IMG/VR virus record: IMGVR_UViG_3300025087_001438
Span: 1-51,636 of that record
Direction: 5' to 3' (one strand)
Source: a virus
Taxonomy: Duplodnaviria > Caudoviricetes
DNA length: 51,636 nt
The translations under genes and the position numbers were made by a program. How positions within the stretch are numbered: position 1 is the first letter of the stretch; every line of letters begins with the position of its first letter. Below the pieces are notes generated by a model, which worked only from the letters and a program-made list of their open reading frames with translations, made no database searches and was not told where the DNA came from. This document shows, piece by piece, positions 1,642-24,948 of the stretch.

Positions 1642-1656
1642 CACAATAGTCTGTTA
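1642..1656 (-). promoter_or_regulatory. Late-gene motif copy (TAACAGACTATTGTG)
   Basis: Includes the upstream TAA; 29 nt separate its TTGTGG from ATG 1611. Confidence 0.75.
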
Positions 1657-2517
1657 TCGCCATTGCCTAATAGCCCCTCGCGGGTCGGCATTGTTGATAA
1701 TAGTTTGGGGGTTGGAGTTGATGTCTATAAGCGTGGTGGAGGTGGAAGTACTAGAAGTAGATGTCGAGCTAGTCGAGGTGCTATTGGTCGTACTGGTAGA
1801 TATGGAGGTGGAGTTGGAGGTCGAGGTGCTAATCGAACTTGATGTGCTAGAGGTGGATGCGCTGGTGGTACTGGCTGAGGTACTACTGGTCGAAGTGGAA
1901 GTAGCATCACTGGCGATAAAAGTAGCTACTACGGCCGCATAAGTGTTACTACTGGGTCCAGTCCATTCAGCTTGGTACTGAGCTTGGGTAGATACGGTCT
2001 TACTTTCTATGGATAGGGGGTGGCCAGCGATATCTATTTGAGTATAGTTGGAAAAACCGCTGCCGACTCCAGTATCACCTGAATTGCCGCAAGTCACCCC
2101 GACGACCAGTTCATCGCCGTAACTGGTAACGGCTGTATAGCCGGAGGTAACAGGTGTTCCACCAGCGGTTTGACCACTTACTTTATCAAGCACTCCACTG
2201 GTCAAAAGTCCCGACCATTCTTCAACGGCAATTCCTACGCTGCTGGCTATCGAATACTCGATAGTAACGGTATGCCCCGCTCCCCCGACTATATTAGAGG
2301 CGTACCAGATTTCGGCTGTGTTGCCGCTGGCACCCGCCTGTTCCCGTGCTACGGCTCTGGTGAAAGCATTGCCTTTATTGTCGCTGACAGTGATAGTACC
2401 GCCACTGGCTGAACCTTGCCCCGCCGCTATGATTAAAGTATTACCATTAGTGGAGATGAAAGAGGCCGTAGTTTGGGGTGAGCCACCTGTTTTAGTAATA
2501 GTCTGGATAAGTGTCAT
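1654..2517 (-). CDS. Virion accessory protein: beta-rich head, Ser/Thr tract, short C-terminal peptide
   Basis: 287 aa; VSDNKGNAFT...IWYASNI beta-sandwich-like domain, then DATSTSTSS...TSTSTTLID. Confidence 0.65.
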   Translation of the reverse strand: MTLIQTITKTGGSPQTTASFISTNGNTLIIAAGQGSASGGTITVSDNKGNAFTRAVAREQAGASGNTAEIWYASNIVGGAGHTVTIEYSIASSVGIAVEEWSGLLTSGVLDKVSGQTAGGTPVTSGYTAVTSYGDELVVGVTCGNSGDTGVGSGFSNYTQIDIAGHPLSIESKTVSTQAQYQAEWTGPSSNTYAAVVATFIASDATSTSTSSTSASTTSASTSSTSSSISTSTSNSTSISTSTTNSTSTSSTSTSSTSTSTTLIDINSNPQTIINNADPRGAIRQWR

Positions 2518-3275
2518 CTGCTCACCCCTATAGTCGCATGAGGTTGGAGGTTGGTAATTATGCCACTGGTTGAGCTTGTGGAGGTGGAGTTGGAAGTTGA
2601 GCTAGTGGATTGGGAGGTCGACGAGGTTGAAATTGAGGTCGATAAGCTGGTAGACACCGAAGTGCTGGTGCTGGAAGTGGAAAGGCTGGAACTAGTTGAG
2701 GTCGTAACTGATACGGATGTGGTGGTACTGGTGGAAATTGATGATGACGTGGAGGTTGAAGTTGTGGCGTCGGTGTAATAAACAGTCATGCGGATGTGGT
2801 CGATATAGGCGGTAATCGTACCTCCTCCCGTAGGAGCCTGTTTGCGCTCAAATTCTGCGACAATACCATTTATGGTCGCTCCACTTGGAATGGTAAAACC
2901 AAAATTTGTTGCCTTTAGATAGTGGCTTATAGCTGTATCCACTCCGTCAGTCCAAACAGTTGCAATTACTACACCAAAGGTTGTGGCATTGATATCTGCG
3001 TCTGTCCAAGACATCCCCCACAGATTAGAGGAGCTACCAAAAGAAACATAAGCTTCAGTCAAGGACCAAGCAGTACTAGCGCTTTGGTCGGTACCACTGA
3101 TAGTCCCACCCTTGACAATTCTTATCGAATAATCTTTAGGGATAGCTTCAACAGAAAATACTGTGGCATAAGAGTCATCACTAGTTTGGGAATTGTTAGG
3201 ATTACTCCAAGTCTTTGTTCCAATATCAGCAGAATCAGCAGTCGTGCTCGGACTCAGTGGCCCCTGAGAAGCGAT
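2514..3275 (-). CDS. Virion accessory protein with Ser/Thr tract; probable non-canonical ATC start (ORF track starts at TTG 3062)
   Basis: Frame is open from 3290 to 2514; a GGAGG Shine-Dalgarno lies 8 nt before ATC at 3275, giving (M)ASQGPLSPSTTADSADIGTKTWSNP...; S/T tract at ~2565-2765. Confidence 0.65.
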   Translation of the reverse strand: MASQGPLSPSTTADSADIGTKTWSNPNNSQTSDDSYATVFSVEAIPKDYSIRIVKGGTISGTDQSASTAWSLTEAYVSFGSSSNLWGMSWTDADINATTFGVVIATVWTDGVDTAISHYLKATNFGFTIPSGATINGIVAEFERKQAPTGGGTITAYIDHIRMTVYYTDATTSTSTSSSISTSTTTSVSVTTSTSSSLSTSSTSTSVSTSLSTSISTSSTSQSTSSTSNSTSTSSTSGIITNLQPHATIGVSR

Positions 3276-3290
3276 GGTATTACCCTCCCC

Positions 3291-4553
3291 CTAATTATTC
3301 CAAACATTAAAAGACGGTATGGTGACTCTGGGTATGGTCATGTAATCAATTAGGGTGGTGGAGGTGCTGGAGCTTGTGGAGAGTGATGAGCTAGTCGAAC
3401 TAGTGGAGATTGATGTCGATACTGAGGTACTAGTGCTGGAAGTGCTGATTGAGCTGGAAGTTGAGCTGGTGGACAGCGAAGTCGAGCTACTGGTGCTACT
3501 GGTGCTGATAGAAGTCGACTGACTGGTAGAAATGCTGGATGACGTGGAACTGGTAGATATGGAAGTACTGGTTGAACTACTGGTACTGCTGGTACTGATT
3601 GACGTACTGATACTGGTCGAGATGCTGGAAGAAGTACTAATAGAACTAGAGGTCGAACTGGTGGAGGTACTGACAGAGGAACTGGTCGAGCTGGTAGAAA
3701 CCGAAGTGGACATTGACGTACTGGAGGTACTGATGGAGGTCGAAACAGATGAAGAAGTACTGGAAGTCGATGTGGAGATAGAGCTGGAGGTACTAGAGGT
3801 GCTTATGGAACTACTAGTACTGGAAGTGCTGATACTGGAACTAGTACTGGATGTTGAGATAGAGGTGGAAATACTACTGGAGGTGGAACTGGTGGAGATA
3901 GAAGAACTAGTAGAAATTGAGGAGCTAGTGCTAGAAGTACTAGTAGAGATTGAGCTACTTGTAGAGCTTGTGCTGATGGACGTACTAATCGAACTGGAAG
4001 TAGAGGAGGTGCTTATCGAGGTTGAGATACTGCTAGAAGTACTGCTTGTGGAAATTGAAGTGGAGGTGCTAGAAGTAGAGATTGAGCTGGATGTGGAACT
4101 AGTACTAGTAGAGATTGAACTCGACGTACTAGAAGTAGAAATGGAAGTGGAAATCGAAGAACTGGTTGACGATGTTGAGATAGAGGTGGAAATAGAGCTT
4201 GAGGTGGAAGAAGTACTTATTGAGCTACTAGTCGAGCTGGTGCTAATCGAACTGCTCGTACTGCTGGTACTGATAGAACTACTTGTGCTGGAGGTAGATG
4301 TAGAAATAGAAGAACTGGTACTGGAGGTGGAAATAGAGGTCGAGATACTCGAACTAGTTGAGCTGGTAGAAATAGACGAACTGGTACTGGAGGTGGACGT
4401 GGAAACACTGCTACTTGTCGAACTAGTGGAAATAGATGTAGAGCTACTAGTAGAAATTGATGTTGAACTTGATGTGGAGGTTGTTGTAGCATCCGCAACA
4501 TTAGCTGACCCTTGACCGAAGTATGGTTGGCCAAAATAATTTGAGCCAAACAT
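3291..4553 (-). CDS. Serine/threonine-rich repeat (mucin/SRRP-like) protein
   Basis: 420 aa; short MFGSNYFGQPYFGQG head, ~375 aa of SISTSSTSS-type repeats, C-terminal TTLIDYMTIPRVTI. Confidence 0.85.
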   Translation of the reverse strand: MFGSNYFGQPYFGQGSANVADATTTSTSSSTSISTSSSTSISTSSTSSSVSTSTSSTSSSISTSSTSSSISTSISTSSTSSSISTSTSSTSSSISTSSTSSSISTSSTSSSISTSSTSSSISTSISTSSTSSSISTSISTSSTSSSISTSTSSTSSSISTSSTSTSISTSSTSSSISTSISTSSTSSSISTSISTSSTSSSISTSTSSTSSSISTSSSISTSSTSSSISTSISTSSTSSSISTSSTSSSISTSSTSSSISTSTSSTSSSVSTSISTSSTSMSTSVSTSSTSSSVSTSTSSTSSSISTSSSISTSISTSISTSSTSSSTSTSISTSSTSSSISTSQSTSISTSSTSSSTSLSTSSTSSSISTSSTSTSVSTSISTSSTSSSLSTSSSTSTTLIDYMTIPRVTIPSFNVWNN

Positions 4554-4555
4554 GG

Positions 4556-5095: not shown

Positions 5096-5104
5096 AATTT
5101 CTCC

Positions 5105-5902
5105 TTAACTTACTGCAAAGGTATAAACGTGTAATTCATCAGCACCTAATGTTATAGCCCCATCTCCACTTATGGCCCTAATAATCACATCCGTGATTGT
5201 TGCACTTGGTTGGGCATCGGTTAATGTTGGGTTGCCCAATCCTGAACCAGCTGCTGCTACATTTCCTGTAGTAGCTGCGGCAACGCCCGAACCTTGGAGA
5301 TTATAATTAGCAATTCGTGGGCCTAACCAAAAGTTTGCGGAATGGGCTTCCGCTTGGTCGGTGGCAGTAGTTCTAACCAACGAAACAGAACTACCCGCCT
5401 CACCTATCACTGTAGTATTAAGTTTAACTCCAAAACCATTACTGCTTGCAGCGCCAGTTGTTCTCCTAACTGACACTAAACCAAAGATTGGAATATTTGT
5501 AGCTATGCTAAGTCCAGTAGCTGTCAATAAATCAACCGCTGTGGTGCTAGTAGTGGTAGCTTCGGTGGTATTTCCGCCGACCCGAGTTAGACCTTCGGCA
5601 TCGGTTAGAGTTTTAGCGGTAACCGTAGCCGCTATCTGGTCGCCTACTACAACTGAGCGAGCTGTAGAGCTTTCCTGCGCCCTAGTTATAGTAAAAGTAT
5701 CAGTTGAGATGGTCGTGACTCGGACTATTTCAGCATTGGTCGTTAGAGGCTGTGCCCCAGCAGGCCAGACGGTTGCATTAAAAGGCACAGTTGGAAATTT
5801 AGCGCCATCAGCGGCGGCAACTACTAATGAAGTTCCAGTAGTGGCTGGTGATGGGGCAGTAGCTACTGTTGAGTAAGCAAAGTTTTTATGCTGATCAGCC
5901 AT
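5105..5902 (-). CDS. Tail fibre/virion structural protein
   Basis: 265 aa, Thr/Ala/Gly-rich; N-terminal EIVRVT...DTFTITRAQEST is typical of fibre attachment domains. Confidence 0.6.
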   Translation of the reverse strand: MADQHKNFAYSTVATAPSPATTGTSLVVAAADGAKFPTVPFNATVWPAGAQPLTTNAEIVRVTTISTDTFTITRAQESSTARSVVVGDQIAATVTAKTLTDAEGLTRVGGNTTEATTTSTTAVDLLTATGLSIATNIPIFGLVSVRRTTGAASSNGFGVKLNTTVIGEAGSSVSLVRTTATDQAEAHSANFWLGPRIANYNLQGSGVAAATTGNVAAAGSGLGNPTLTDAQPSATITDVIIRAISGDGAITLGADELHVYTFAVS

Positions 5903-5935
5903 ATATTGTCAGTATGATATAAAAACAGAATAAAC

Positions 5936-5950
5936 CACAATAGTCTGTTA
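5936..5950 (-). promoter_or_regulatory. Late-gene motif copy (TAACAGACTATTGTG)
   Basis: Includes the upstream TAA; 32 nt to ATG 5902. Confidence 0.75.
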
Positions 5951-6898
5951 GAGGGGGGTGATGGTGTTTTCTGGCATTTTATAAATCTCACCGTCTTTGG
6001 GGCAAGTAGCAGTAAAACCGTCTTTGGTGAGCATAATCTCCTTGCACTTAGGGCATCTATAACCCCATATATCAAAGCCCTTACCCCACTTTTCATGGTT
6101 TTGGTTCCACTGCAACTCAGGTATTATTAAACTCTTTATATCTTCCTCATCTCGGACAGACTTGAACGAACTAGACCAGTGATGCCATACCCACGACCTA
6201 GTCGTACCGACACATCTATAGCCAAACATCCTTGCTCGGCAACTGTAATCATAATCTTCGCCTCCGCCTGGGTAATATCGTTCATCTAACATACCGACCT
6301 CTAAAAACTTGGCAGTATCAATTACTGAAGCGTACATCGTCACCCCGTCAATAACCGAACCTGGTTTAATGGTCAGATGTTCGTTTACATAATGTTCATC
6401 TTCAATAAGATGCCGCCAATCCTCGTCAGTATATTTATCTTTATAAGGGATGATGTCAAAGTCATCCCCTGATTCCCTGCCGACTGACCAATCCGCCAAT
6501 CTAATAGAGGCGGGGTTTACAATCATGGCGGGGGTAGTAGGAGTGGCTTCTTCAACTTTCCTGAAAGTTTCTATCACCCCATCCCACCAAGCTGGATGAA
6601 TTAGTTCCACATCGTCGTTCAGCATTAGAAAGTAAGGGGTATCGACTAATCTTATACCCAAGTTGGTTGCTTGGGCGAACCCCAAATTACCAGTGTAATG
6701 AACATCCGACTTTGGAGTTCTTATCACCATTAAATTTTTATATTGGTTTCGTAGCTTAGTAGCGTCTATACCGTTGATAGATTGGTCTATTATGTAGGTA
6801 TAGAAGATATTGTCCGTGTACTCGTACAGGGTTTGGAGCATCCGCTGTACGAGGTCTGGACGAATAATAGGACAAATTACGGTTAAAAGCTTAGCCAT
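5948..6898 (-). CDS. Glycosyltransferase family 2 (GT-A) with C-terminal Zn-ribbon-like motif
   Basis: LTVICP, NLGFAQATNLGI, LNDD, VGMLDERY..GGEDYDYS motifs; C-terminal CPKC...CPKD. Confidence 0.9.
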   Translation of the reverse strand: MAKLLTVICPIIRPDLVQRMLQTLYEYTDNIFYTYIIDQSINGIDATKLRNQYKNLMVIRTPKSDVHYTGNLGFAQATNLGIRLVDTPYFLMLNDDVELIHPAWWDGVIETFRKVEEATPTTPAMIVNPASIRLADWSVGRESGDDFDIIPYKDKYTDEDWRHLIEDEHYVNEHLTIKPGSVIDGVTMYASVIDTAKFLEVGMLDERYYPGGGEDYDYSCRARMFGYRCVGTTRSWVWHHWSSSFKSVRDEEDIKSLIIPELQWNQNHEKWGKGFDIWGYRCPKCKEIMLTKDGFTATCPKDGEIYKMPENTITPL

Positions 6899-7220
6899 TT
6901 TCGGGGGCTTTGTAGATAGCCTCCCCTTGATTGTACTTGAAAAGCTCTGCCTCTTCTACCTCTACCACATCGTCCATTATGAAACCCAGTGTATCTAGTA
7001 TTTCTGGCTTGGTAATCCACTGGCGGGTCTTGGCTACTTCGTCTATTAAATAAACCTTGTCTCCCCCTTGTTTTGTTCGGACTACTCGCTTGCCTTCCGG
7101 TAAAACTCGTGCTGGTTCAACAGTTCCTGTAACTTCTACAGTCGTACTATCTATTTCAACCCCTTCAGCAGCTAGTTTGTCTATTAGTTTATGTAATTGT
7201 TCTACGTCTTCGCGTGTCAT
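6891..7220 (-). CDS. Hypothetical protein with a VYLI-x(5)-RQWI surface-repeat-like module
   Basis: 109 aa; DKVYLIDEVAKTRQWITKPEILDTLG; overlaps both neighbouring genes. Confidence 0.6.
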   Translation of the reverse strand: MTREDVEQLHKLIDKLAAEGVEIDSTTVEVTGTVEPARVLPEGKRVVRTKQGGDKVYLIDEVAKTRQWITKPEILDTLGFIMDDVVEVEEAELFKYNQGEAIYKAPENG

Positions 7221-7699
7221 TACGAACCTCCTTTAATTATATTTAGATTGGCAAATTCGCCATGGTATTTAATTGCTGCTTTATTATATGCTCTGGCTGC
7301 CTCTTTCACATCATCAAATCTCCCTAAAAATATTGAAGAACTATTAGACCAAATACGGGCTATCCACTTATTTTGATGTCGGTATACGCCTTTGTAACCA
7401 GATTTATTATTTCGATTGGGTTTAGGTCTATTATGCTGGTTTTCGGCATGGGTACAAATACGTATTTCGGAGCGTCTATTATCTGTTCTAATGCCATGTC
7501 TATGGTCAACTTCTTCGCCTGGCTGGGCGTTCAAAAGCAAACGGTGCATTTTAATAATTTTCCGCCTGCCATTAATAATCTTATCAGTGATTGCATATCC
7601 ATCTTTATTTAGATGCCAGCCACCAATAGAGTTAACTAACTTTAAGTCCTTATCATCGACTAAAACTTTAGTCCCATTTTTGAGGACAACCTCAGTCAT
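7220..7699 (-). CDS. HNH homing endonuclease with AP2 DNA-binding domain
   Basis: VDHRHGIRTDNRRSEIR (HNH_3-type) plus SGYKGV...WIARI...LGRF...AARAYNKAA (AP2). Confidence 0.92.
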   Translation of the reverse strand: MTEVVLKNGTKVLVDDKDLKLVNSIGGWHLNKDGYAITDKIINGRRKIIKMHRLLLNAQPGEEVDHRHGIRTDNRRSEIRICTHAENQHNRPKPNRNNKSGYKGVYRHQNKWIARIWSNSSSIFLGRFDDVKEAARAYNKAAIKYHGEFANLNIIKGGS

Positions 7700-8666
7700 C
7701 TATAACCTCCTGAATTTTACTCATCATACTATCTAAAGTATACCCCCTATCTATTAAATACTGTCTATAGCTGATGGAATCATATTCTTGGCTAGTAATC
7801 TTATCTATGGCTTGGTCTATGGAATCCCATGTCAGACCGGGCCAGATATCATCAGCTCCAAAAAATCTATGGGGCACGACTTTAATACCCTTCGCCATTG
7901 CTTCAGCGATTGCATAAGAAAACCCTTCTTTCACAGAACCATGCAGAAGAAAATTTTTATCCTCTAGAAATTCGTCAACAGTTTTACCCTCTAAAAGAAT
8001 ATTAGTAAACTCTATATTTAAGTTATGATGTTCTACAAAATCATCAAAATATGCATACTCCCAGTTGGAGTCGCTTCGTTGTCCCAGCCAGTGAATCTTA
8101 TACCTTGGGTCTATTTGTTGAAGTTTCAAGATAACTTGTAAAAGTAGATGCGTTCCTTTAGAGTTCCATTTCTCAGAAACGATAGCTATATCAAAACCCG
8201 GACTACGCTTTTTAAACTTATAGCGACTTAAATCAACTCCACAGGGAATAGTATGAAACTTGGTTTTATCGGTCAATCCAGGTAGGTTAGCAATATTTGC
8301 GACCTCCCTTATATGATTGGCTATAAAAATAACATCATCCACTAAACTCCATCGAGCGGCATGTTGATGGCCTTGCCAAATCTCGATATCAATCGGTCTA
8401 ACGATAATTCTCTTATCTGATAAATCCATGTCGTACAAACTCCACGGTTTGTAATTGGCATTATCTGCCAGTAATGCTTCCCCTGGATTTGTGGCGGAAA
8501 CGATATTGTTATCAGCGGTGTCCATCCATATTAAATCTGCCCATTCATTAGCTAACTGAGGATTCCAGTATCTTTCCGTCTTAACTTCGTGTCCCTGTTT
8601 ACGCCACCAGTTAGCCATATCACTGGTAAATTTCCCGAAATATGGGTCTGTAAGAAGAATTTTCAT
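7692..8666 (-). CDS. Glycosyltransferase, GT-B/GT4-like
   Basis: IPCGVDL, KGTHLL and EGFSYAIAEAMAKG (EX7E) motifs. Confidence 0.88.
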   Translation of the reverse strand: MKILLTDPYFGKFTSDMANWWRKQGHEVKTERYWNPQLANEWADLIWMDTADNNIVSATNPGEALLADNANYKPWSLYDMDLSDKRIIVRPIDIEIWQGHQHAARWSLVDDVIFIANHIREVANIANLPGLTDKTKFHTIPCGVDLSRYKFKKRSPGFDIAIVSEKWNSKGTHLLLQVILKLQQIDPRYKIHWLGQRSDSNWEYAYFDDFVEHHNLNIEFTNILLEGKTVDEFLEDKNFLLHGSVKEGFSYAIAEAMAKGIKVVPHRFFGADDIWPGLTWDSIDQAIDKITSQEYDSISYRQYLIDRGYTLDSMMSKIQEVIDD

Positions 8667-17299: not shown

Positions 17300-17306
17300 A
17301 ATTCTC

Positions 17307-17822: not shown

Positions 17823-18403
17823 TGGACAACCTCACTAACGAACTTGAAGTTATCAGTCTGCTTAACTTTCTCCAATAGTTGTGGAAGGGTTTCGTCTATT
17901 CCGTTACCCATACACGACCAAGTATGACCATGCACAGAGTTTTCACCCACTTTATATACAGGTAATTCTTCGGGTCGGCGGTCATCGTTGTAGGCTTGGT
18001 CGGCCACCCAGAACTCGTTGTCGACTAGCCATTTGTATATATCGTCACTTATTTGCCAGCCGGGTGCCTTGAATCCCATAGCGAAATACACATCTAACAA
18101 CTCTTTTCTACCATCTTGATTCATCCAACCATCAAAATCGTCATAACTCATTTTCTCGCACTCGTAATTAGAACTGTGAGTAAAACCATGTTGGGCAATT
18201 TCCACCCAATCACGGTTAGTTTTAGACCACTCTAATAGTTCTATGGTAGATTCATCAGGAATAGTAAAGAGTGTAATCTTAAAAGCTGGGTTAACTTCTT
18301 TAAGTTTCAGAAGTTCCCCTCTACAATCCCGTGATTGACACATATCAGAGATAACATGCGAGCACCCGAAGTCGTCACTGTCCCAGACTTGGTAATCACT
18401 CAT
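17819..18403 (-). CDS. Polysaccharide deacetylase-like (NodB/DUF2334-type) protein
   Basis: DDF, KITLFTIP, QHGFTH, GFKAPGW. Confidence 0.75.
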   Translation of the reverse strand: MSDYQVWDSDDFGCSHVISDMCQSRDCRGELLKLKEVNPAFKITLFTIPDESTIELLEWSKTNRDWVEIAQHGFTHSSNYECEKMSYDDFDGWMNQDGRKELLDVYFAMGFKAPGWQISDDIYKWLVDNEFWVADQAYNDDRRPEELPVYKVGENSVHGHTWSCMGNGIDETLPQLLEKVKQTDNFKFVSEVVQ

Positions 18404-19091
18404 AGTTAGCCAACTTTTCTAGCCACTCATTCGGATATTGTTCGTTCAACAACTTGGCGTTTGGTACAAGGCAGTGGCCGCCAATCTTACCTTCGGGGGG
18501 GTCAAGTATGTACCTCTGCGCCCAATTCTCCCCCAGTTCGTGATAGAGCTTGTTATAATCACGGTCAAACTCTTTGAGCAATTCAAAGTCCATATCTATC
18601 TTGTCGGCTACAGACTTTTCATAGTCAGTCCATATCAAATTAATTCCATACTTAGCTATAGAGCGAATCTTTAGAAACTCAGTGAAATCGGAATTAAAAA
18701 CTTGCCTAGTATTTATATACTTATCAGTGAACAAACCCGTGAAAAAGAATCCTTCTTCATTATCATTAACACCTATCCATCTAGGCATTGTACGAATACT
18801 AAGTTCTAGTTCTGGGTGGCGACCCTCGATAGGTGAGTGAACAGCACCTAGTATCTGTTTAGTAGTACCTATTGGGACGGTGGAGTAAATGATTGTATGA
18901 CTAGGGTTAAAACGGTGCTGATAAGTAATCACATCGTCTACAAACGACTCACTAAACGGGAAACAGATATGAAGCACCTCTAGCGGACTCATAATATCCT
19001 TGGATTCTAAATCTAGGGTTTGAGCATCTTTAAAGATAGCCTTAATAGCTTGTCCAATCTCCCCCATTCCCACAATTAAATGCTTATCCAT
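18396..19091 (-). CDS. Short UDP-glucose/GDP-mannose dehydrogenase-family protein
   Basis: IVGMGEIG (Rossmann), STVPIGTT, HSP, IGGHCL (catalytic Cys); start at ATG 19091. Confidence 0.8.
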   Translation of the reverse strand: MDKHLIVGMGEIGQAIKAIFKDAQTLDLESKDIMSPLEVLHICFPFSESFVDDVITYQHRFNPSHTIIYSTVPIGTTKQILGAVHSPIEGRHPELELSIRTMPRWIGVNDNEEGFFFTGLFTDKYINTRQVFNSDFTEFLKIRSIAKYGINLIWTDYEKSVADKIDMDFELLKEFDRDYNKLYHELGENWAQRYILDPPEGKIGGHCLVPNAKLLNEQYPNEWLEKLANYE

Positions 19092-19686
19092 GCTCCACCT
19101 CCACCGAGTATAAATCATGATAAGCATCTTTTCTGGGAAGGCGTTCGTGCGTCCACTTTAAGTTTAAAGAATCTAAGAATTTCTCCCACTTGTCTTTGGC
19201 ATAAACCGCCCCATAACCATCATCACCGTCATCATTTATCTGGTCTGTGTTGCCTAATCGCCAGAAGGTGAATATAACTAGCCTCCTAGCCACTCTCAGG
19301 GCCTCGCTAACGGGTGTTTCATAGCCATTGGTGTGTTCCAGCACATCTTGCATGATAACCACGTCAAACGAGTCGTCCAGGTGTCTGAGTTTCCTAACAT
19401 CACCTATAGAGAAAATTCTCATTGGTTTAACTCGCTGGTTGGCCACTCGCACAAACCTTTCGGAATAATCCTCCCCCCTATATTTAACTGATGGCCCGAA
19501 CTCTAGGAAATGCTCAAAATTATGTCCGGGCCCACAGCCTGCGTCTAGCACCCACTCCCCACTTTTAAGATACTTGCCTATAAGGTGTCTTAGGGGTGAG
19601 CCAGGCCCCTCAGAATACGAGAGCATATAGTTAGCCGCACCTTCATCCGTCGCCATATGCTTATCCCAAAAATTTTGGCTCTTCAT
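19084..19686 (-). CDS. Class I SAM-dependent methyltransferase
   Basis: VLDAGCGPG, DSFDVV..DVLEH, EALRVAR. Confidence 0.9.
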   Translation of the reverse strand: MKSQNFWDKHMATDEGAANYMLSYSEGPGSPLRHLIGKYLKSGEWVLDAGCGPGHNFEHFLEFGPSVKYRGEDYSERFVRVANQRVKPMRIFSIGDVRKLRHLDDSFDVVIMQDVLEHTNGYETPVSEALRVARRLVIFTFWRLGNTDQINDDGDDGYGAVYAKDKWEKFLDSLNLKWTHERLPRKDAYHDLYSVEVEHG

Positions 19687-20363
19687 GAAATAACTTCTCT
19701 CTTGAACATACCAACCAAATCGCCAGCCTCAGGGTCAAACTTTCCCAAGTCATTGACATAATCCTCAGTTGTCACATAAGTAGCATTGGGATTGAGATGA
19801 ACTCTGTTACCTGATGAACCAGCCGACCAGCCCTGACCCCTGCCCCTGCGCCAAAAGCCCAAAGATATTTGGGTGGAAAAATAGACCAAGTCATTATCCC
19901 AGGAGTTATTAGGCTTCAAATTATCAAATAGGGATTGTAAGTTCGCTAGGCGTATGACTGAACCAGGGATATAAGCTATCTGAACAGCATAAGGAACTGT
20001 AGACTTCTGTTCACTATTGGGAATCACCCCCTCCGTGTAATTATCCCCCAATCTATAGCCGTAAATCTTGTTTGACCAATCATTAATAGCTGTGGCCGAG
20101 GACATCACTGCCAGTTTTCTGAAATAGGGGCTTTTTTTGAACAGTCCCATCTGAGAGGAGAAATAGCCAGAATTGACCAAACAATCAGCCTCCACCATAC
20201 AGACGAAGTTCTCGTGCCCCGTTTCTAACCCCATAACAGCATCTATCCAGTCACTAGCCACTAGTAATTCCGAATCTATGTCCTTGAGTTCCCGATGAAG
20301 GTTTTCATAGGTCAGTTTGATAACGTTCGGTTCATGTGAGTCTTTTATGATGACACTAAGCAT
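19683..20363 (-). CDS. Divergent GT-A-like protein
   Basis: MLSVII N-terminus and a VCMVEADC DxD-like motif; cluster context; start at ATG 20363. Confidence 0.5.
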   Translation of the reverse strand: MLSVIIKDSHEPNVIKLTYENLHRELKDIDSELLVASDWIDAVMGLETGHENFVCMVEADCLVNSGYFSSQMGLFKKSPYFRKLAVMSSATAINDWSNKIYGYRLGDNYTEGVIPNSEQKSTVPYAVQIAYIPGSVIRLANLQSLFDNLKPNNSWDNDLVYFSTQISLGFWRRGRGQGWSAGSSGNRVHLNPNATYVTTEDYVNDLGKFDPEAGDLVGMFKREVIS

Positions 20364-21138
20364 AATAATTCTCCACATCTTGTTTAGAGGCATACTCCAG
20401 TAACTGAACCTTATCGTCGCCTTGTTCTAAGGCGGGGTGGTAAATATCGTTGTGTCCAGTATCTTCGGGTTTGAAGTTTTCGGGGTAGCCCCACCTATCA
20501 GTATCTGGAGTGCCGAATAAGTGCAGACACCGTACTTCCGTGGCAAAGGCCGTTTTGTAACCAGCCTCCCTGAGCTTGCCGCAGACATATTTTTCTTCCT
20601 GTCCCCTGCCTGGGGCTTCACGATGCCACCCCCCCACCCTAGAAGTAACTTTAGTGTCCATTATCCGGTAACTGCCACCTGGATGGGGAAAATCGACTAT
20701 TAAGTCATTGTCGTGTCCTTCGAAGATATTACCTGTGCCTATCATCACTTGGGTGCGGGCGGCAATCGCCTTATAATCTGGGAAATACTGCATCAGTTCG
20801 TAAAGTTCTTCCAACCAGTCCTTATCACCCTTCTTGGGCATAATCAGGCAATCATTGTCTACACAGACAAAGTAATCACTACGGGTACATTCTTGTAATA
20901 ATAGATTTCTAGCCGCCTCCAACCCAAGGTTAGTCTTAATCGGGATAAATTCGTCTATCAGGCCATTATCGTGGAGAGACTCTAGGAACTCAGGGGTGTC
21001 GCCGTTTGAGCCGTTGTCTAACACTACCAAGCGGAAATTCTCTCTGTTAGTGTTGCGGTGAATAGTGCGGATAACCAGCTCGGTCATTTTGGGGCGGTTC
21101 CAGGAGACAAGGTGTAAATCCAAAGGCTTAGTCAACAT
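20356..21138 (-). CDS. Glycosyltransferase family 2
   Basis: VSWNRP, VVLDNGS, NLGLEAARN, VDND, VGGW; start at ATG 21138. Confidence 0.9.
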   Translation of the reverse strand: MLTKPLDLHLVSWNRPKMTELVIRTIHRNTNRENFRLVVLDNGSNGDTPEFLESLHDNGLIDEFIPIKTNLGLEAARNLLLQECTRSDYFVCVDNDCLIMPKKGDKDWLEELYELMQYFPDYKAIAARTQVMIGTGNIFEGHDNDLIVDFPHPGGSYRIMDTKVTSRVGGWHREAPGRGQEEKYVCGKLREAGYKTAFATEVRCLHLFGTPDTDRWGYPENFKPEDTGHNDIYHPALEQGDDKVQLLEYASKQDVENYYA

Positions 21139-22006
21139 CGTATATCTCTCCAAAGTGTTCGTAGACTTCTTCGTGCGCCCGTGGATATTGAATGTATAAA
21201 AGGGCGTCTTTACTCTCGTCAGTTGGGTGGAGTGGTAGAGAATGGTTATCACGGGTTAAAAGATAGAACTGTAAGTGGTCATCACCCCACGGATTACCTA
21301 GTGATAGCCCATGGCGGTATACTCCATCCTGAAACGCCGTTTCCGGGTTTTCAGTATAGGTGTACTCCCAGTGGTCTCTTTCGGGGTCTATCTTCATCGG
21401 GAATTTAGAGTCAGCCGCAAACTGATAGCAGTTGACTACATCAGGAATACGATACTTGGGGTCAGATGCCCACAAATCACGGCGGAAAATAAATGACCCT
21501 GCCCCGATATGTCCGCTCCTGAACCACTCGTGCCCATCACCTTCAATTTTAGGTCTGAAAGTTCTTCTAATAGCCGTATGATGGTCTGGGTAGTAAACGA
21601 TACTGCCAAAGTTAAATATCTTGTAATCGGGATAGTCTTTAATAGCCTGATTCAGTTCTCTCAAGTAATGGGAGCTGTACTCATCATCGCAGTCCAGCCA
21701 GCACAACCACTCGCCCTTAGCTTCTTCCATACCCCGATTACGGGCAATAGCTCGGTTCTGATTCTCCTGATGAATTACCTTTATCCGCTTATCGCTGTCA
21801 GCAAACTTTTGCAGTATTTCAGGGGTATTATCGGTGCAGCCATCATCCACCAATATCAGCTCCCAATCAGGGAATTGCTGGTAAATTATTGACTTGATGG
21901 CTCTTTGGACTTCTCTAGCCCGCCAATGTCTATGTTCAGCATCCGTGACACCTTCGTCTTTGGCGGAGTACACAGGAATTATGACACTAAACTTCGGTTT
22001 TAACAT
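21128..22006 (-). CDS. Glycosyltransferase family 2
   Basis: FSVIIPVY, ELILVDDGCTD, ARNRGM..AKGEWLCWLDCDD. Confidence 0.93.
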   Translation of the reverse strand: MLKPKFSVIIPVYSAKDEGVTDAEHRHWRAREVQRAIKSIIYQQFPDWELILVDDGCTDNTPEILQKFADSDKRIKVIHQENQNRAIARNRGMEEAKGEWLCWLDCDDEYSSHYLRELNQAIKDYPDYKIFNFGSIVYYPDHHTAIRRTFRPKIEGDGHEWFRSGHIGAGSFIFRRDLWASDPKYRIPDVVNCYQFAADSKFPMKIDPERDHWEYTYTENPETAFQDGVYRHGLSLGNPWGDDHLQFYLLTRDNHSLPLHPTDESKDALLYIQYPRAHEEVYEHFGEIYDVD

Positions 22007-22130
22007 TTATTGTCCTATTCATAATATATTTGGTTACTTCTTCTTTGGAATGTAGTTTGACGGGCTTTTCTCCCTCAAAGTAAACTCTGTAAATACCCGA
22101 ACGAGACCTTCTAACCTTCGGTTTCGACAT
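21987..22130 (-). CDS. Small basic hypothetical protein (47 aa, not in the ORF track)
   Basis: MSKPKVRRSRSGIYRVYFEGEKPVKLHSKEEV...; fills the gap between two GT genes and overlaps both. Confidence 0.5.
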   Translation of the reverse strand: MSKPKVRRSRSGIYRVYFEGEKPVKLHSKEEVTKYIMNRTINVKTEV

Positions 22131-23418
22131 TTTCACCCGCCTTTATAAGTGGTTCTATATATCTTCTAAACGTATAATCCGGATTACGCTTTGTCCTGAC
22201 CCACGTTTTCGCCCTGAAAACCTTATCGTTCTCCGAGTAGTATTTCAAAGCCTTTGCCATGTCCTCATAATATCCATCAATATTCTCGTAGGTGGTATTA
22301 ATCTCGCCGTTATAACCCGAAATAGCAATGTTAGCCCCGTCAAACTGCTTATAAAGGGCGTTCTTACCGTATATTTGTCTGAAAGGGGCGAAGTCCTGAT
22401 TTAGAATAACAAAATTACCCTTCAGCATCGCTTCCTGGGCAATTAAGGAATAAGTTTCACTCTTACTCGCCAGTAAAAAGACATTAGACAGAGTGAACAA
22501 ATCCAGTACTATTTCGTGGGGGATTTCCATCTGGGCGATATCGTCGAACTCAGACATAAAGGTAAGGCAATCTTCAGCATCCTGCTCTTTGGCTAGTTTC
22601 TTCAAGTCTGCCCTGTAAACTACTTTGTCGTCACCGGTGGACTGGAAGTCGCAGAATACCAGATGGGCGGTGGTACCTATACGTTTCAGGGCGGCTATCA
22701 AGCGGACATTGCCCTCGGCATACTTACCCCTGTCTAGGCGGATTGGCAGTATCATCAGTACTTCCACATTACCCAGTTTCTTTTTATCGTATAAGCGCTG
22801 GACTAAGGGGTGCATACCTTCTGTCGGGTCGGTAGAATGGGGGACTTCAACCACTTGGTCTTCTTCAAAATTGAAGTTACGGGCTACTCTGGGAATATCA
22901 TAAGCGTTAGGATAGCAGATAATCGAGTTGGCGAAGGGGGAGTTCAGGGCTTCGGCGTATTTCTCACCGTACATATTACGTTCTTGACTAACTATTGTCG
23001 GATTAGTAGCTGAGTGAATCCAGTGAAGCCAACGAATTGAGGGGCGGTCTTGAGCTAGTTTTCGGGCGGCTAAGTTCAGTACCGTGTAGTCGGGTAAGAA
23101 TATTAAATCATGGGTGATGACCACTGCCCCATCAGGTAAAATGTCGTTTAATTGCTGGTAAGCTAAATCCACAATTTCCTCGATGTTCTCAGCTTTATCA
23201 CTAGGGTCATGTAGAGCGAACGGGTAAGTTAGTTTGGTTTCTATTCCATAGTGGGGGGTGTCTTCTGGTGGCTCCCAGCCTTCGGAAGCTATTAAAACGG
23301 GCTGATAGCCAGCCCGCTGAAGCATCTTAATCTGTTCCCCTACAACTAGTATTGGGCTGAAAGAACGTAGGTAGGTGGAGAAGTTGCTGAGAATATAAAC
23401 AGTTTTATTTGTTCCCAT
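22111..23418 (-). CDS. Glycosyltransferase, GT-B/GT4-like; first gene of the glycan cluster
   Basis: 435 aa; WLHWIHS, PIRLDRGK, SNVFLLASKSETYSLIAQEA (EX7E). Confidence 0.85.
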   Translation of the reverse strand: MGTNKTVYILSNFSTYLRSFSPILVVGEQIKMLQRAGYQPVLIASEGWEPPEDTPHYGIETKLTYPFALHDPSDKAENIEEIVDLAYQQLNDILPDGAVVITHDLIFLPDYTVLNLAARKLAQDRPSIRWLHWIHSATNPTIVSQERNMYGEKYAEALNSPFANSIICYPNAYDIPRVARNFNFEEDQVVEVPHSTDPTEGMHPLVQRLYDKKKLGNVEVLMILPIRLDRGKYAEGNVRLIAALKRIGTTAHLVFCDFQSTGDDKVVYRADLKKLAKEQDAEDCLTFMSEFDDIAQMEIPHEIVLDLFTLSNVFLLASKSETYSLIAQEAMLKGNFVILNQDFAPFRQIYGKNALYKQFDGANIAISGYNGEINTTYENIDGYYEDMAKALKYYSENDKVFRAKTWVRTKRNPDYTFRRYIEPLIKAGENVETEG

Positions 23419-23438
23419 TAACCCAAGTTAAACACCAG

Positions 23439-23453
23439 CACAATAGTCTGTCA
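23439..23453 (-). promoter_or_regulatory. Late-gene motif copy (TGACAGACTATTGTG) at the head of the glycan cluster
   Basis: Intergenic; 19 nt to ATG 23418. Confidence 0.7.
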
Positions 23454-23462
23454 AGCAGATTT

Positions 23463-23684
23463 TTAGACAGATGTAGTGGTGGAGGTCGAAGTACTGGTGG
23501 AAACTGAAGTTGAACTGCTAGTGGAACTGGTCGAGATTGAAGTTGAAGAACTAGTCGAACTAGTAGAAATGGAGGTGGAACTAGAGGTTGAAGTCGTGGT
23601 ATTTCCACCATGCCCACGCAAGCGAATGGTCGAATAGCCAGCGATTACACCAAACCATTGGCTGAGGTTGGCGGGCGAGGACAT
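23463..23684 (-). CDS. Small protein: ~28-aa head plus C-terminal Ser/Thr tract
   Basis: 73 aa; GGAGG RBS; ...GGNTTTSTSSSTSIS...TSTSTTTSV. Confidence 0.75.
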   Translation of the reverse strand: MSSPANLSQWFGVIAGYSTIRLRGHGGNTTTSTSSSTSISTSSTSSSTSISTSSTSSSTSVSTSTSTSTTTSV

Positions 23685-24032
23685 CTACTCCTCCTTGTAA
23701 TTGATTTGTAAAAAGTAGTTGTTGCCATTTCCAACCGTAGAAGTCACTTTAATGACTTCATTTCTAGCACCACTTATTACTACTGGTACATAACCTGATG
23801 CAGGGGTGGCGGCTGGGAAGATAGTATGGATAGTATTGTTGGAAGTCCCGAAGTAAACTCGGATTTTACCAGAGTTTCCCTCAGTGTTGATGTAAATACC
23901 TTTAACAGCCGCTAATTTACCCGACGTAGGGGTAATAATAGTTGCAGCTGTTTGGTTAGTGTCGTATTCGTTGGTGAAAGAAGTATCGAAGTCGTGGCGA
24001 TTAGCCACACCAGTTAATGATGAAACTGCCAT
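23685..24032 (-). CDS. Small beta-rich virion (head accessory) protein
   Basis: 115 aa; AAGGAG RBS; lies downstream of the capsid genes. Confidence 0.6.
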   Translation of the reverse strand: MAVSSLTGVANRHDFDTSFTNEYDTNQTAATIITPTSGKLAAVKGIYINTEGNSGKIRVYFGTSNNTIHTIFPAATPASGYVPVVISGARNEVIKVTSTVGNGNNYFLQINYKEE

Positions 24033-24108
24033 AATAAGTTCTCCTTTAGCTTAATTAGCAAGGGCGGGAAAGGGGCCGCAGCCCCAATCCAATCCCCATA
24101 TTTTGTTT

Positions 24109-24948
24109 TTACGGCGTGGTCGTCGTAGATGTTGATGTTGAACTCGTGCTTGAGCTGGTGCTCGAAGTCGAGCTGGAAGTACTAGATGTAGAACTTGAAG
24201 TGCTGGACGTCGAGGTCGTAACCGTCGTGGTAGACGTAGAACTTGACGTAGAGCTGGTTGAAGTCGTAATCGAGTACTCAGGCACATCATTGAGCGTCGT
24301 GCCGTCTGACCAGTTATCGTAGTTGTAAGCGATGATGAGAGCCGTGGTGTTATTCGGCGTGGTTGCCGGAGTTACCAAGTTTCTCTCAACCGTGCCACTG
24401 GCTACGACAGTTGGTGCGTTTTGAAGTGTCAGAGCGCCATACGGCGTGGTACGCGAATATACCTTAACAGTGGTGTTATTCTGCCACAACCGATGGTTGA
24501 CACCTAACTTGTTGGTCGTGCCAACCGAGAAAGTAGCTGCCGTGGATAGTTGGGCGTCAATATTGACGCTAGTGACTGTCCTAAAAGCTAGGTTCCCATT
24601 GACTGCGCTCGAAGCGTCCGCCGCAAAGCGGAAAGCTTCAGAGATAGTCTTGCCTTCAACGTTAGTACCTGTAATGGTCACGACTGATTCTTGAATATCA
24701 CCAGTCGTGCCGCCGGGCGTAACGCTCAAAGCTCGTGGCACATCAGGGTCGGTTAGACCGGACGTAATCGTCTGGTCAGCGCCAACCGTAGCCGCTGTAG
24801 CCGCCAAGATTGCGGTGGACGTTCCTGCATTAACCTCATTGGAAGTATCGGTGTAAGCGAAAGTTGTACTATAGAGGTTCTTGTAGTTAAACGTACCGAA
24901 AGTGTGGCGACCCGCAATCGGCCAGGTCTTTGCTCTGTAAATTGCCAT
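24109..24948 (-). CDS. Head accessory/structural protein with C-terminal Ser/Thr tract
   Basis: 279 aa immediately after the major capsid gene; PDVPRALSVT...VTITGTN; ends ITTSTSSTSSS...TSTSTTTTP. Confidence 0.75.
   Translation of the reverse strand: MAIYRAKTWPIAGRHTFGTFNYKNLYSTTFAYTDTSNEVNAGTSTAILAATAATVGADQTITSGLTDPDVPRALSVTPGGTTGDIQESVVTITGTNVEGKTISEAFRFAADASSAVNGNLAFRTVTSVNIDAQLSTAATFSVGTTNKLGVNHRLWQNNTTVKVYSRTTPYGALTLQNAPTVVASGTVERNLVTPATTPNNTTALIIAYNYDNWSDGTTLNDVPEYSITTSTSSTSSSTSTTTVTTSTSSTSSSTSSTSSSTSSTSSSTSSTSTSTTTTP

What the first reader, a model, noticed from the sequence alone, without database searches (positions are those of the whole stretch)
1654..24948. Candidate phage virion O-glycosylation system: a portable Ser/Thr tag on six structural proteins plus a 17.5-kb glycan-biosynthesis cluster
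Seen in sequence: six otherwise unrelated ORFs carry similar proline-free S/T tracts (1732-1902, ~2565-2765, ~3354-4487, ~23466-23600, ~24115-24270, ~50605-50787). Most tracts open with TTSTS and close with STSTT. They lie on both sides of a same-strand, tightly overlapping block (5948-23418) of ~11 soluble GTs, 6 SAM methyltransferases and three nucleotide-sugar enzymes. That block is about a third of the genome and sits between capsid and tail genes. Established: streptococcal serine-rich repeat proteins (Fap1/GspB) are O-glycosylated by co-encoded GtfA/B plus extending GTs, and some mycobacteriophages glycosylate capsid and tail-tube proteins with their own GTs. Inference: this phage grafts one acceptor tag onto head-accessory, fibre-like and tail-hub proteins and builds a complex, methylated glycan coat for shielding, host-surface mimicry or adhesion. 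I do not know of a multi-protein tag with a pathway this large having been described.
Basis: partly seen in the sequence, partly recalled or inferred. Interest (0 to 1): 0.93.

Follow-up and report, generated by a model that had tools for sequence, protein, structure and literature searches.

The report
Phage Ser/Thr tags with sugar-enzyme block
An uncultured 52-kb phage carries pure serine/threonine tags on six particle-module proteins and gives a third of its genome to sugar-adding enzymes; related phages that lack the enzymes lack every tag, so it probably sugar-coats its own particle, though no sugar has been measured.

Summary
Exactly six minus-strand ORFs carry 48-384-aa tracts that are almost pure Ser/Thr. 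They flank a 17.5-kb, 24-gene block with 9-11 glycosyltransferases, 6 methyltransferases and a GDP-sugar reductase plus a DegT-type enzyme.

Four whole relatives that lack the block (47-49 kb, 97-100% complete) have no tract anywhere. Their capsid-adjacent protein stops exactly where the tag begins, and their tail-hub protein lacks the loop insert. On a portal tree this is only one evolutionary event.

Wider support comes from the first enzyme of the block. It is a GT-B with no match in 50,697 phage records. In 71 of 87 loci that encode a relative of it, a tract lies within about 10 kb. In 54 of 87 the tract ORF lies directly upstream.

Best reading, at 0.7: phage-encoded cytoplasmic O-glycosylation of virion proteins. 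No glycan has been shown. The closest published case is mycobacteriophage virion glycosylation, so I class this as a new variant of a known kind. This scan has noted the same theme before on other phage DNA.

The parts
24109..24948 (-). Protein directly downstream of the major capsid gene: a beta-sandwich domain (residues 13-213) plus a 57-aa C-terminal Ser/Thr tag ending STSTSTTTTP. Likely a capsid cement or decoration protein.
   Evidence: Tract. AlphaFold: pLDDT 77.7, tail 220-279 below 50. The tag is kept in 11 of 16 capsid-anchored relatives; four of the five others have contigs that end first. Homologues in block-less relatives end at ..NP.YG(V/L/F), just where the tag starts. Cement-like role is a lead only: Atlas TM 0.56 to a Phage_cement cluster; VIA Z at most 7.2 to jellyrolls.
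23463..23684 (-). 73-aa protein: a 25-aa head plus a 48-aa Ser/Thr tail. It is the smallest tagged protein and lies directly upstream of the first GT.
   Evidence: In 54 of 87 loci with a relative of that GT, a tract ORF on the same strand ends within 2.5 kb upstream.
23685..24032 (-). Conserved 115-aa protein between the two tagged proteins. Function unknown.
   Evidence: Homologues in G003, G005 and G010 and in loci L004, L008, L012, L016 and L134. Only a weak Pfam hit to the PRD1 P5 spike N-terminus (E 0.014, below cut-off).
22111..23418 (-). 'GT435': 435-aa retaining-type GT-B, the first gene of the block. My candidate for the enzyme that puts the first sugar on the tag.
   Evidence: pLDDT 87.9, two Rossmann-like halves. 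Foldseek top hits are GT4/GT5/GT20 enzymes at E about 1e-14. VIA Z 14-16.4, tied among BshA, TarM, MshA, PimA and SdgB. E321 and E329 are invariant in 30 of 30 sequences. 126 relatives in IMG/VR, none in 50,697 phage records, and 7 MAG contigs among GTDB species genomes.
5948..22006 (-). Rest of the block, 23 ORFs. GT2-type: 21128, 20356, 16209, 15069, and 5948 (weak). GT1-type: 14161, 9547, 8663, 7692. Methyltransferases: 19084, 17307, 15743, 13653, 11130, 10543. GDP-6-deoxyhexose reductase-like: 11666. DegT-type: 12559. Also Cpn10 (17018), HNH-AP2 endonuclease (7220), a weak DUF2334-like ORF (17819), and unknowns 19683, 18396 and 6891.
   Evidence: Pfam, NCBIfam, PDB. No transmembrane segment. 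Core genes kept in G001-G005: 22111, 21128, 20356, 19683, 19084, 17819, 16209, 8663, 7692, 6891, 5948. The stretch 9547-15746 is variable.
23440..23449 (-). Copy of the 10-mer AGACTATTGT just upstream of GT435.
   Evidence: Six exact copies, all on the minus strand and all intergenic. The others precede the portal, the gene after the portal, the tail-fibre-like gene, the adaptor and gene 48045-49322. This fits one late expression programme, which is an inference.
5937..5946 (-). Copy of the same 10-mer just after the last block gene and upstream of the tail-fibre-like gene.
5105..5902 (-). Tail-fibre-like protein, matched over its N-terminal part only. No tract.
   Evidence: phrog_8469 'tail fiber protein', E 1.4e-11, residues 5-114.
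3291..4553 (-). Stalk protein: a 21-aa head, a 384-aa Ser/Thr tract and a 17-20-aa C-terminal peptide (LIDYMTIPRVTIPSF..).
   Evidence: Relatives carry 1-4 such proteins with different heads and a similar end peptide.
2514..3062 (-). Stalk protein: a 96-aa head, a 73-aa tract and a short C-terminal peptide.
1654..2517 (-). Stalk protein: a 202-aa head, a 64-aa tract and the C-terminal peptide LIDINSNPQTIINNAD...
   Evidence: Head homologue without a tract in block-less locus L141 (37% identity).
406..1611 (-). Head-to-tail adaptor. No tract.
   Evidence: Pfam SU10_adaptor, E 2e-9, 38.6 bits against a cut-off of 27.
50104..51636 (-). C-terminal 510 aa of the tail hub or nozzle-like protein, with a 71-aa Ser/Thr loop insert.
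   Evidence: The alignment shows the insert between '..VGEL' and '..K.VR..YDFD' in all six block-bearing genomes and in none of the four block-less ones. Atlas feature score 0.95 to a Phage_stabilise (P22 gp10-type) cluster, a lead only.
3..404 (-). N-terminal 134 aa of the same hub gene. The record is cut inside this gene and its two ends overlap.
   Evidence: The N-piece ends ..GASANNN and the C-piece begins ANNNYLPL. The intact homologue in G005 is a 643-aa frame.
25005..25937 (-). Major capsid protein. No tract. Used as an anchor for finding relatives.
   Evidence: Pfam Phage_capsid_4 E 7e-20 and Mu-like gpT E 9e-15. Sixteen related loci.

Best explanation
This is a phage-encoded, cytoplasmic protein O-glycosylation system for the virion.

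Late in infection the phage makes several particle-module proteins that carry a proline-free, uncharged Ser/Thr tag. These are a capsid-adjacent beta-sandwich protein, a 73-aa mini-protein, three stalk proteins and the tail hub. The tag is disordered and typically ends in ..STSTTT followed by a hydrophobic residue.

The soluble enzymes of the adjacent 24-gene block build sugars on the Ser/Thr hydroxyls. The retaining GT-B 'GT435' is my candidate for attaching the first sugar. The other 8-10 GTs extend the chain. Six methyltransferases cap or decorate the sugars. The GDP-6-deoxyhexose enzymes supply an unusual sugar. The result would be a mucin-like, methylated glycan brush on head, fibres and tail tip.

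Shown here: the tags, the enzyme families, their gene order, their joint conservation and their joint loss. Inferred: that the tags are the acceptors, which enzyme starts the chain, what the glycan is, and what the coat is for.
For: (1) Joint presence and joint loss. All seven block-bearing records (G000-G005, G010) have tracts. Four whole block-less relatives have none, and they lack every block gene except a 26-29% identical homologue of 19683 (three of the four).

(2) The loss is precise at separate loci. The capsid-adjacent homologue ends where the tag begins. The hub lacks only the 70-95-aa insert. The stalk genes are gone.

(3) Association outside this phage family. 62 of 76 IMG/VR loci with a GT435 relative (down to 25% identity, contigs up to 277 kb) have a tract in the locus, that is, within about 10 kb of the enzyme gene. 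So do 5 of 7 MAG contigs. On the GT435 tree, 71 of 87 rows have a tract and 54 of 87 have one directly upstream.

(4) The tags look like one kind of signal. 116 distinct tracts are 96% Ser/Thr, 0.2% Pro and 0.25% charged. 86 of 116 end in TT, against 17% at internal positions. 77 of 116 lie at a C-terminus.

(5) The block lies inside the virion operon, bracketed by two of six exact copies of a late-gene motif. It has no membrane protein.

(6) GT435 has a confident GT-B fold with both acidic residues invariant. The tie group of its structural matches includes SdgB, which glycosylates serine repeats.

(7) Precedent: phage-encoded GTs glycosylate the C-termini of mycobacteriophage capsid and tail-tube subunits. 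I know this only from passages in PMC12619734 and PMC13313380, both citing Freeman et al. 2023.
Against: No chemistry: no mass shift, lectin or glycoproteomic data exist for this phage or any relative.

On the portal tree the six tract-less, block-less rows form one clade (SH-aLRT 98). Tract state changes once. Of 4 independent pairs that differ in GT435, tracts go the same way in 1 and do not differ in 3, so nothing reaches significance.

Exceptions. L134 keeps the tagged capsid-adjacent protein with no GT in the 5 kb that follow. L145 has three tagged mini-proteins with no GT435 in the 5 kb left on its contig. G010 has a GT block but no GT435 in its 25-kb fragment. All three are fragments.

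16 of 87 GT435 rows have no tract in the locus. Ten of these fall in two clean clades of 7 and 3 rows, so the enzyme family is not bound to tracts everywhere.

Peripheral GTs that act on lipid-linked sugars also lack transmembrane helices, so 'soluble' does not prove a protein acceptor.

The virion roles of the tagged proteins rest on position and weak leads.
Confidence: 0.7

Rival explanations
1. The Ser/Thr tracts are unmodified flexible spacers or 'bristles' on virion proteins. The GT block acts on another acceptor, such as a host envelope polysaccharide, a lipid-linked precursor or a small molecule. This could serve superinfection exclusion or release from the cell.
For: Structural neighbours of GT435 include enzymes for small molecules and wall polymers (BshA, MshA, TarM, PimA). 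Sixteen of 87 GT435 rows have no tract nearby. L134 keeps a tag with no GT in view. Peripheral GTs need no transmembrane helix.
Against: Tags at three or more separate loci vanish together with the block. Tagged mini-proteins sit directly upstream of GT435 across distant lineages. There is no priming polyprenyl-phosphate transferase, flippase, polymerase or other membrane protein in the block. The block lies inside the late structural operon.
Confidence: 0.15
2. The tags are glycosylated by the block, but the products are not a virion coat. The 73-aa protein and the stalk proteins would be free carriers or decoys, for example a primer for a phage-made polysaccharide or a released mucin-like material.
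For: The 73-aa protein has almost no folded part. The stalk proteins have no known virion family. No proteome exists.
Against: The same tag sits inside the conserved hub protein and on the capsid-adjacent protein, both syntenic structural-module genes. The stalk proteins share a conserved C-terminal peptide and lie between the fibre-like gene and the adaptor gene.
Confidence: 0.08
3. The GTs modify phage DNA, by glycosylating hypermodified bases, to evade restriction.
For: Phage GTs are best known for this. PMC12619734 says so in the passage I read.
Against: No hydroxymethylase-type or other base-modifying enzyme turned up among the 56 ORFs translated, nor in the family scans that covered 55 of them. 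Ten GTs, six methyltransferases and GDP-sugar enzymes do not fit known DNA systems. A DNA role does not explain the joint loss of the tags.
Confidence: 0.03

Closest known systems
Mycobacteriophage virion glycosylation (Che8, Corndog, Myrna; Freeman et al. 2023, Cell Host Microbe). The paper is not held; I know it from citing passages and from recall.
   Same: Phage-encoded soluble GTs, sometimes with a methyltransferase, modify the phage's own virion proteins at C-terminal extensions.
   Different: Here the major capsid protein has no tag. The acceptors would be long, pure Ser/Thr tracts on accessory proteins, fibres and a hub loop. The enzyme set is far larger, at 24 genes and 34% of the genome. 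GT435 has no tblastn match in 50,697 phage records, a collection that should include those phages. The hosts are unknown and uncultured.
Serine-rich repeat adhesins of Gram-positive cocci with GtfA/GtfB, and staphylococcal SD-repeat proteins with SdgA/SdgB (recalled; SdgB appears).
   Same: A retaining GT4-type GT-B starts O-glycosylation of long Ser-rich repeats in the cytoplasm, and further GTs extend the chain. SdgB (7vfm, Z 15.0) lies in the tie group of GT435's structural matches.
   Different: No family matching a GtfB-type partner and no SecA2/SecY2 export genes appeared in the Pfam scans of the block. The repeats here are Ser/Thr only, not SASA or SD dipeptides. GT435 lacks the extra domain of TarM, SdgB and GtfA: it has 435 aa against about 490-500 aa for the TarM and SdgB chains listed. 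The product would be a virus particle, not a cell-wall adhesin.
Virus-encoded glycan machinery of giant viruses: chlorovirus PBCV-1 capsid glycans and mimivirus fibril clusters (recalled, not read here).
   Same: A virus carries its own multi-GT, methyltransferase and nucleotide-sugar genes. It glycosylates its capsid or fibrils in the cytoplasm with methylated and rare sugars.
   Different: Those are eukaryotic viruses. The PBCV-1 glycans are N-linked at non-canonical sites. No Ser/Thr homopolymer tag is involved. No sequence relation was tested here.
Bacterial flagellin O-glycosylation islands (Pseudomonas, Campylobacter; recalled).
   Same: Gene islands combine GTs, methyltransferases, DegT-type enzymes and sugar dehydratases or reductases, and modify Ser/Thr of a surface filament protein before assembly.
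   Different: The acceptors there are scattered surface Ser/Thr on a folded protein, not a tag. The enzymes are host-encoded, not phage-encoded.

Membership tests
Mycobacteriophage-type virion glycosylation | The phage encodes its own glycosyltransferases among or near virion genes. | tested here: met
   Eight ORFs pass Pfam GT cut-offs and GT435 folds as a GT-B. All lie between the capsid and tail genes.
Mycobacteriophage-type virion glycosylation | The acceptor is the C-terminus of the major capsid and tail-tube subunits. | tested here: not met
   The major capsid protein (25005-25937) has no tract. No tail-tube gene was found; the tail module looks podovirus-like (SU10 adaptor). The tags sit on other proteins.
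Mycobacteriophage-type virion glycosylation | The GTs are homologous to the mycobacteriophage enzymes. | tested here: not met
   GT435: no tblastn match at E 1e-3 in 50,697 phage records. GT2 21128: 87 records match, none over 80% or more of the query, and Mycobacterium is not among the listed organism names. The other GTs were not searched.
Mycobacteriophage-type virion glycosylation | Glycans are shown on virion proteins by mass spectrometry. | not testable with these tools
   Uncultured phage; no proteome.
SRRP GtfA/GtfB system | A retaining GT4-type GT-B is the initiating enzyme. | tested here: inconclusive
   The GT-B fold and the invariant E321/E329 pair fit. GT435 is tied among many GT4, GT5 and GT20 enzymes. 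GtfA is not among the rows shown, which does not exclude it.
SRRP GtfA/GtfB system | A GtfB-type partner and an accessory Sec export system. | tested here: not met
   No such Pfam family among the 24 block ORFs or the flanking ORFs scanned. No membrane protein in the block.
CAZy GT4 (retaining GT-B) | GT-B fold with two conserved acidic residues eight positions apart in the C-terminal half (the EX7E motif, recalled). | tested here: met
   Model pLDDT 87.9. E321 and E329 invariant in 30 of 30 sequences. The profile hits GT4 enzymes in the PDB at E 6e-7 to 5e-5.
CAZy GT4 (retaining GT-B) | Sequence-level family membership. | tested here: inconclusive
   Pfam Glycos_transf_1 scores 18.2 bits, below the cut-off of 26.4. 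No NCBIfam match.
Phage seroconversion GTs (GtrABC type) | A membrane flippase and membrane-bound GTs. | tested here: not met
   No 19-aa window in any block ORF reaches a hydropathy above 1.62. No Gtr family in the Pfam scans.
Phage DNA glycosylation | An enzyme that makes a modified base as the sugar acceptor. | tested here: inconclusive
   None among the ORFs scanned. Many small early ORFs at 33-40 kb were not scanned.

The most novel reading that the evidence does not exclude
The Ser/Thr tract with its ..STSTTT-hydrophobic end, together with the phage-only GT435 family, is a portable 'tag and writer' module. It is ancient and widespread in uncultured phages, from about 40-kb podovirus-like genomes to contigs over 200 kb. 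It lets a phage graft a mucin-like, methylated glycan brush onto any virion protein by adding a tag to a terminus or a loop. GT435 would be a new class of polypeptide O-glycosyltransferase that reads the tag. The variable middle of the block would diversify the glycan much as O-antigen loci do.
Probability: 0.4. Interest if true: 0.85.

Novelty: new variant of a known kind. Interest (0 to 1): 0.72.

Why it matters
Virion glycosylation by phage enzymes has been shown experimentally only in actinobacteriophages, as far as my searches and recall reach.

If the reading is right, a large group of environmental phages invest up to a third of their genome in coating head, fibres and tail tip with a complex methylated glycan. 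This would affect how such particles stick to cells and particles, resist proteases and grazers, and are recognised.

It would also explain many unannotated 'auxiliary' GT genes in viromes. It would give a compact tag-plus-enzyme pair that could be tested as an orthogonal glyco-tagging tool in bacteria.

The natural clade that lost enzymes and tags together offers a ready comparison set.

Tried and rejected
PDB sequence searches. GT435 alone gave nothing. The 9-sequence profile gave only chance-level hits. Only the 30-sequence profile reached GT4 enzymes.

Capsid-adjacent protein. Foldseek against the PDB gave no match at E 0.001 or better. VIA over 48,161 chains gave only middling jellyroll matches, Z at most 7.2, including a Bordetella phage cement protein at Z 6.0. 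BFVD gave only unnamed uncultured-phage proteins. I therefore treat 'cement protein' as a lead, not a result.

PHROGs gave nothing for 9 of the 10 structural-module proteins.

19683-20393: the profile gave one GT at E 0.24, so it stays unassigned. Three of the four block-less relatives keep it. 18396-19127: two alignment attempts failed on stop codons in my references. A single-sequence PDB search gave nothing useful.

The independent-contrast test on the portal tree was not significant: 4 pairs, 1 concordant, 3 without a difference.

Literature. Six full-text searches found no paper describing Ser/Thr-tract tags with GT clusters in phages. One search failed on term syntax. Freeman et al. 2023 is not held. 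I read only passages of PMC12619734, PMC12801897, PMC12014285 and PMC13313380. Supplementary files were not consulted.

Not run: complex prediction (an enzyme with a low-complexity substrate is a poor case for it), the look-up of sequencing runs and read laying, the search for homologous proteins, and the search of protein representatives. Host identity was not pursued. The seven GTDB hits are MAG contigs of mixed phyla and may be binned phage DNA.

Considered and rejected: that the tracts are antisense artefacts. Only minus-strand frames pass the threshold, and synteny supports that strand.

Full report
WHAT THE WINDOW IS. The window is a whole IMG/VR virus record of 51,636 bp with an estimated completeness of 99%. 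It is cut inside one gene. The minus-strand ORF 3-404 and the open frame 50104-51636 are the two parts of one hub protein of about 640 aa, and the ends overlap: the N-piece ends ..GASANNN and the C-piece begins ANNNYLPL. Minus-strand genes run terminase (29859-31376), portal (27628-29814), an acidic scaffold-like protein, a 157-aa protein and a Mu gpT-type major capsid protein (25005-25937). Then come the finding's region, an SU10-type adaptor (406-1611), the hub, and three large proteins, one with a weak transglycosylase match. This layout suggests a podovirus-like particle. No isolated phage is close: the best capsid identity is 33%.

Five of six tracts open with TTSTS and five of six close with STSTT (read). 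The non-tract parts are unrelated to each other. All ten Ser/Thr codons are used in the tracts, and Tandem Repeats Finder sees only short, weak arrays. So the repeats are kept at the protein level.

The block 5948-23418 is 33.8% of the genome and holds 24 same-strand ORFs. Neighbours overlap or lie within 7 nt, apart from one 104-nt gap. Eight ORFs pass Pfam glycosyltransferase (GT) cut-offs. 22111-23418 ('GT435') is below the cut-off but folds confidently as a GT-B. 5948 is a weak GT2 hit. 19683 is unassigned. All six methyltransferases pass their cut-offs. Two nucleotide-sugar enzymes are supported, not three. 11666-12628 is closest to GDP-6-deoxy-D-lyxo-4-hexulose reductase. 12559-13656 is a DegT-type enzyme. 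By my reading and a recalled motif, it has His where aminotransferases have the PLP lysine. The block also holds a Cpn10 and an HNH-AP2 endonuclease. No block ORF has a transmembrane-like segment.

RELATIVES WITH THE BLOCK. A capsid search gave 16 IMG/VR loci. In 11 of them the gene after the capsid gene ends in a 50-61-aa Ser/Thr tail that closes ..STSTSTTT(T/A/L/V)P. Four of the other five loci end before or inside that gene. The fifth (31% capsid identity) has no tract. GT435 and the next GT2 genes follow in synteny in 10 of those 11 loci; the contig of the eleventh ends first. Whole records G001-G005 each carry 3-6 tracts. All have the capsid-adjacent tail and the hub insert at the same position. 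They have 1-4 stalk proteins with different heads and a similar C-terminal peptide. The block has a conserved core (22111, 21128, 20356, 19683, 19084, 17819, 16209, 8663, 7692, 6891, 5948). Its middle, which holds the GDP-sugar enzymes and several methyltransferases and GTs, is variable.

RELATIVES WITHOUT THE BLOCK. A portal profile gave 63 loci. Four whole relatives (G006-G009; 47-49 kb; 97-100% complete; three with terminal repeats; capsid identity 43-50%) have none of the block genes, except that three of them keep a 26-29% identical homologue of 19683. They have no tract anywhere in the genome. Their capsid-adjacent protein (three of the four have one) is 225-238 aa and ends ..NP(T/V)N(D/A)(N/Q)P.YG(V/L/F), exactly where the tag begins in the others. 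Their hub proteins align through the whole length but lack the 70-95-aa Ser/Thr insert.

The limit is that on a portal tree of 21 loci (those with at least 7 kb downstream of the portal gene) the six block-less rows form one clade. Tract state changes once. With the midpoint root this is most simply a single loss, because the outer lineages carry tracts. The independent-pair test has no power. What makes that one event informative is that it removed sequence at several separate loci together.

BEYOND THIS FAMILY. A GT435 profile found 126 relatives in IMG/VR, of which the best 80 were fetched. Of 76 loci scanned, 62 have a tract in the locus, that is, within about 10 kb of the enzyme gene. These include enzymes only 25-30% identical, on contigs of 40 to 224 kb. 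Typically one to three small proteins, each a head of about 50 aa plus a Ser/Thr tail, lie directly upstream of the enzyme, often right after the capsid gene.

On a tree of 87 enzyme sequences, 71 have a tract in the locus and 54 have one on the same strand within 2.5 kb upstream. The 16 without fall into two clean clades (7 and 3 rows), three short or cut loci, and three others. In the larger tract-less clade the enzyme still sits by head-morphogenesis genes.

The enzyme has no match in 50,697 phage records. It has only seven matches in GTDB species genomes, all MAG contigs, and five of those carry tracts. Twenty records without the enzyme (359,648 bp) have no tract of 30 aa or more. These control records are relatives by portal or capsid, not a random sample.

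Across 116 distinct tracts the make-up is 96% Ser/Thr, 0.2% Pro and 0.25% charged. 86 of 116 end in TT, against 17% at internal positions. 77 of 116 are C-terminal.

THE ENZYME AND THE TAGGED PROTEINS. GT435 models at pLDDT 87.9 as a GT-B. Its neighbours are retaining GT4, GT5 and GT20 enzymes. By VIA the top rows are tied at Z 14-16.4. They include BshA, TarM, MshA and PimA, and also SdgB, the staphylococcal enzyme that glycosylates serine repeats. So the fold allows a protein-serine acceptor but does not single one out. E321 and E329 are invariant in 30 of 30 sequences.

The capsid-adjacent protein is a beta-sandwich with a disordered tail. A cement or decoration role is only a lead. The hub's likeness to P22 gp10-type proteins is also only a lead. 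Six exact copies of AGACTATTGT lie in minus-strand intergenic spots. One is just before GT435 and one just after the last block gene. I read this as one late expression programme; that is an inference.

MECHANISM AND RIVALS. The best reading (0.7) is cytoplasmic O-glycosylation of the tags by the block during late infection. GT435 is the likely initiator, the other GTs extend the chain, the methyltransferases decorate it, and the GDP-6-deoxyhexose enzymes supply a rare sugar.

The main rival (0.15) keeps the tracts as bare spacers and sends the GTs to another acceptor. It is weakened by the joint loss at separate loci and by the tight adjacency of tag genes and GT435 in distant phages. It is kept alive by the tract-less GT435 clades and by fragments such as L134. 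A non-virion glycoprotein product (0.08) and DNA modification (0.03) are less likely.

COMPARISON AND NOVELTY. It works like mycobacteriophage virion glycosylation and like serine-rich-repeat glycosylation in Gram-positive cocci. It is a member of neither. The capsid subunit itself is untagged. GT435 has no match among the 50,697 phage records searched. No GtfB-type or accessory-Sec genes are present.

My six literature searches found no description of this tag-plus-cluster arrangement in phages. The key precedent paper could be read only through citing passages. This scan has noted the same theme repeatedly on other phage DNA, with several different GT families. I class it as a new variant of a known kind, interest 0.72.

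Noticed in passing
window 17018-17299 (-): A Cpn10/GroES-like co-chaperonin gene sits in the middle of the GT block (Pfam E 3e-11). Among the ten related records compared, only the closest one (G005) has it.
   Followed up: partly
window 7220-7699 (-): An HNH-AP2 homing-endonuclease-like gene lies inside the block. Its homologues sit at other places in relatives: before GT435 in L014, and between the 19683 and 19084 homologues in L007. It therefore looks mobile.
   Followed up: partly
G006-G009 hub proteins (alignment): The block-less relatives lack the Ser/Thr insert in the hub. They carry a different insert of about 90 aa at another site (TTTDVITV..GTPI..YYVI..TIKLA..), which is absent from all block-bearing hubs.
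   Followed up: no
L047, L048, L050, L051, L053, L055, L073: In a clade of GT435 relatives without nearby tracts, the enzyme follows a Mu F-like minor head protein and a conserved 130-140-aa protein ending ..LKNQG.V.C.L.T..GG.RLDPGE..WLNK... This may be a different acceptor for the same enzyme family.
   Followed up: no
window 11666-13656 (-): The SDR is closest to GDP-6-deoxy-D-lyxo-4-hexulose reductase (2pk3, E 5e-62). The DegT-type neighbour reads ..STYIAHH.. where aminotransferases have the PLP lysine (my reading plus a recalled motif). Its PDB matches include ColD and E1-type 3-dehydrases at E 1e-29 to 1e-32, behind aminotransferases at 1e-37 to 1e-44. No GDP-mannose 4,6-dehydratase is evident in the phage.
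   Followed up: partly
window 1643-1652, 5937-5946, 23440-23449, 27620-27629, 29847-29856, 49357-49366 (-): There are six exact copies of AGACTATTGT, all on the minus strand and all between a stop codon and the next start codon. By a rough count, about 0.1 exact copies would be expected by chance. This is a candidate late promoter or processing signal.
   Followed up: partly
window 19683-20393 (-) and L130:16223-16816, L135:16189-16791, L140:16145-16747: This is the only block gene kept by the block-less relatives (three of the four whole genomes; 26-29% identity). It has no family. Its profile gives one GT at E 0.24. It may not belong to the glycosylation pathway.
   Followed up: partly
window 1-14 and 51623-51636 (approximate): The two ends of the record overlap inside the hub gene..ANNN appears at the end of one piece and at the start of the other. 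That fits a circularly permuted or circular assembly, although the record is labelled linear.
   Followed up: no
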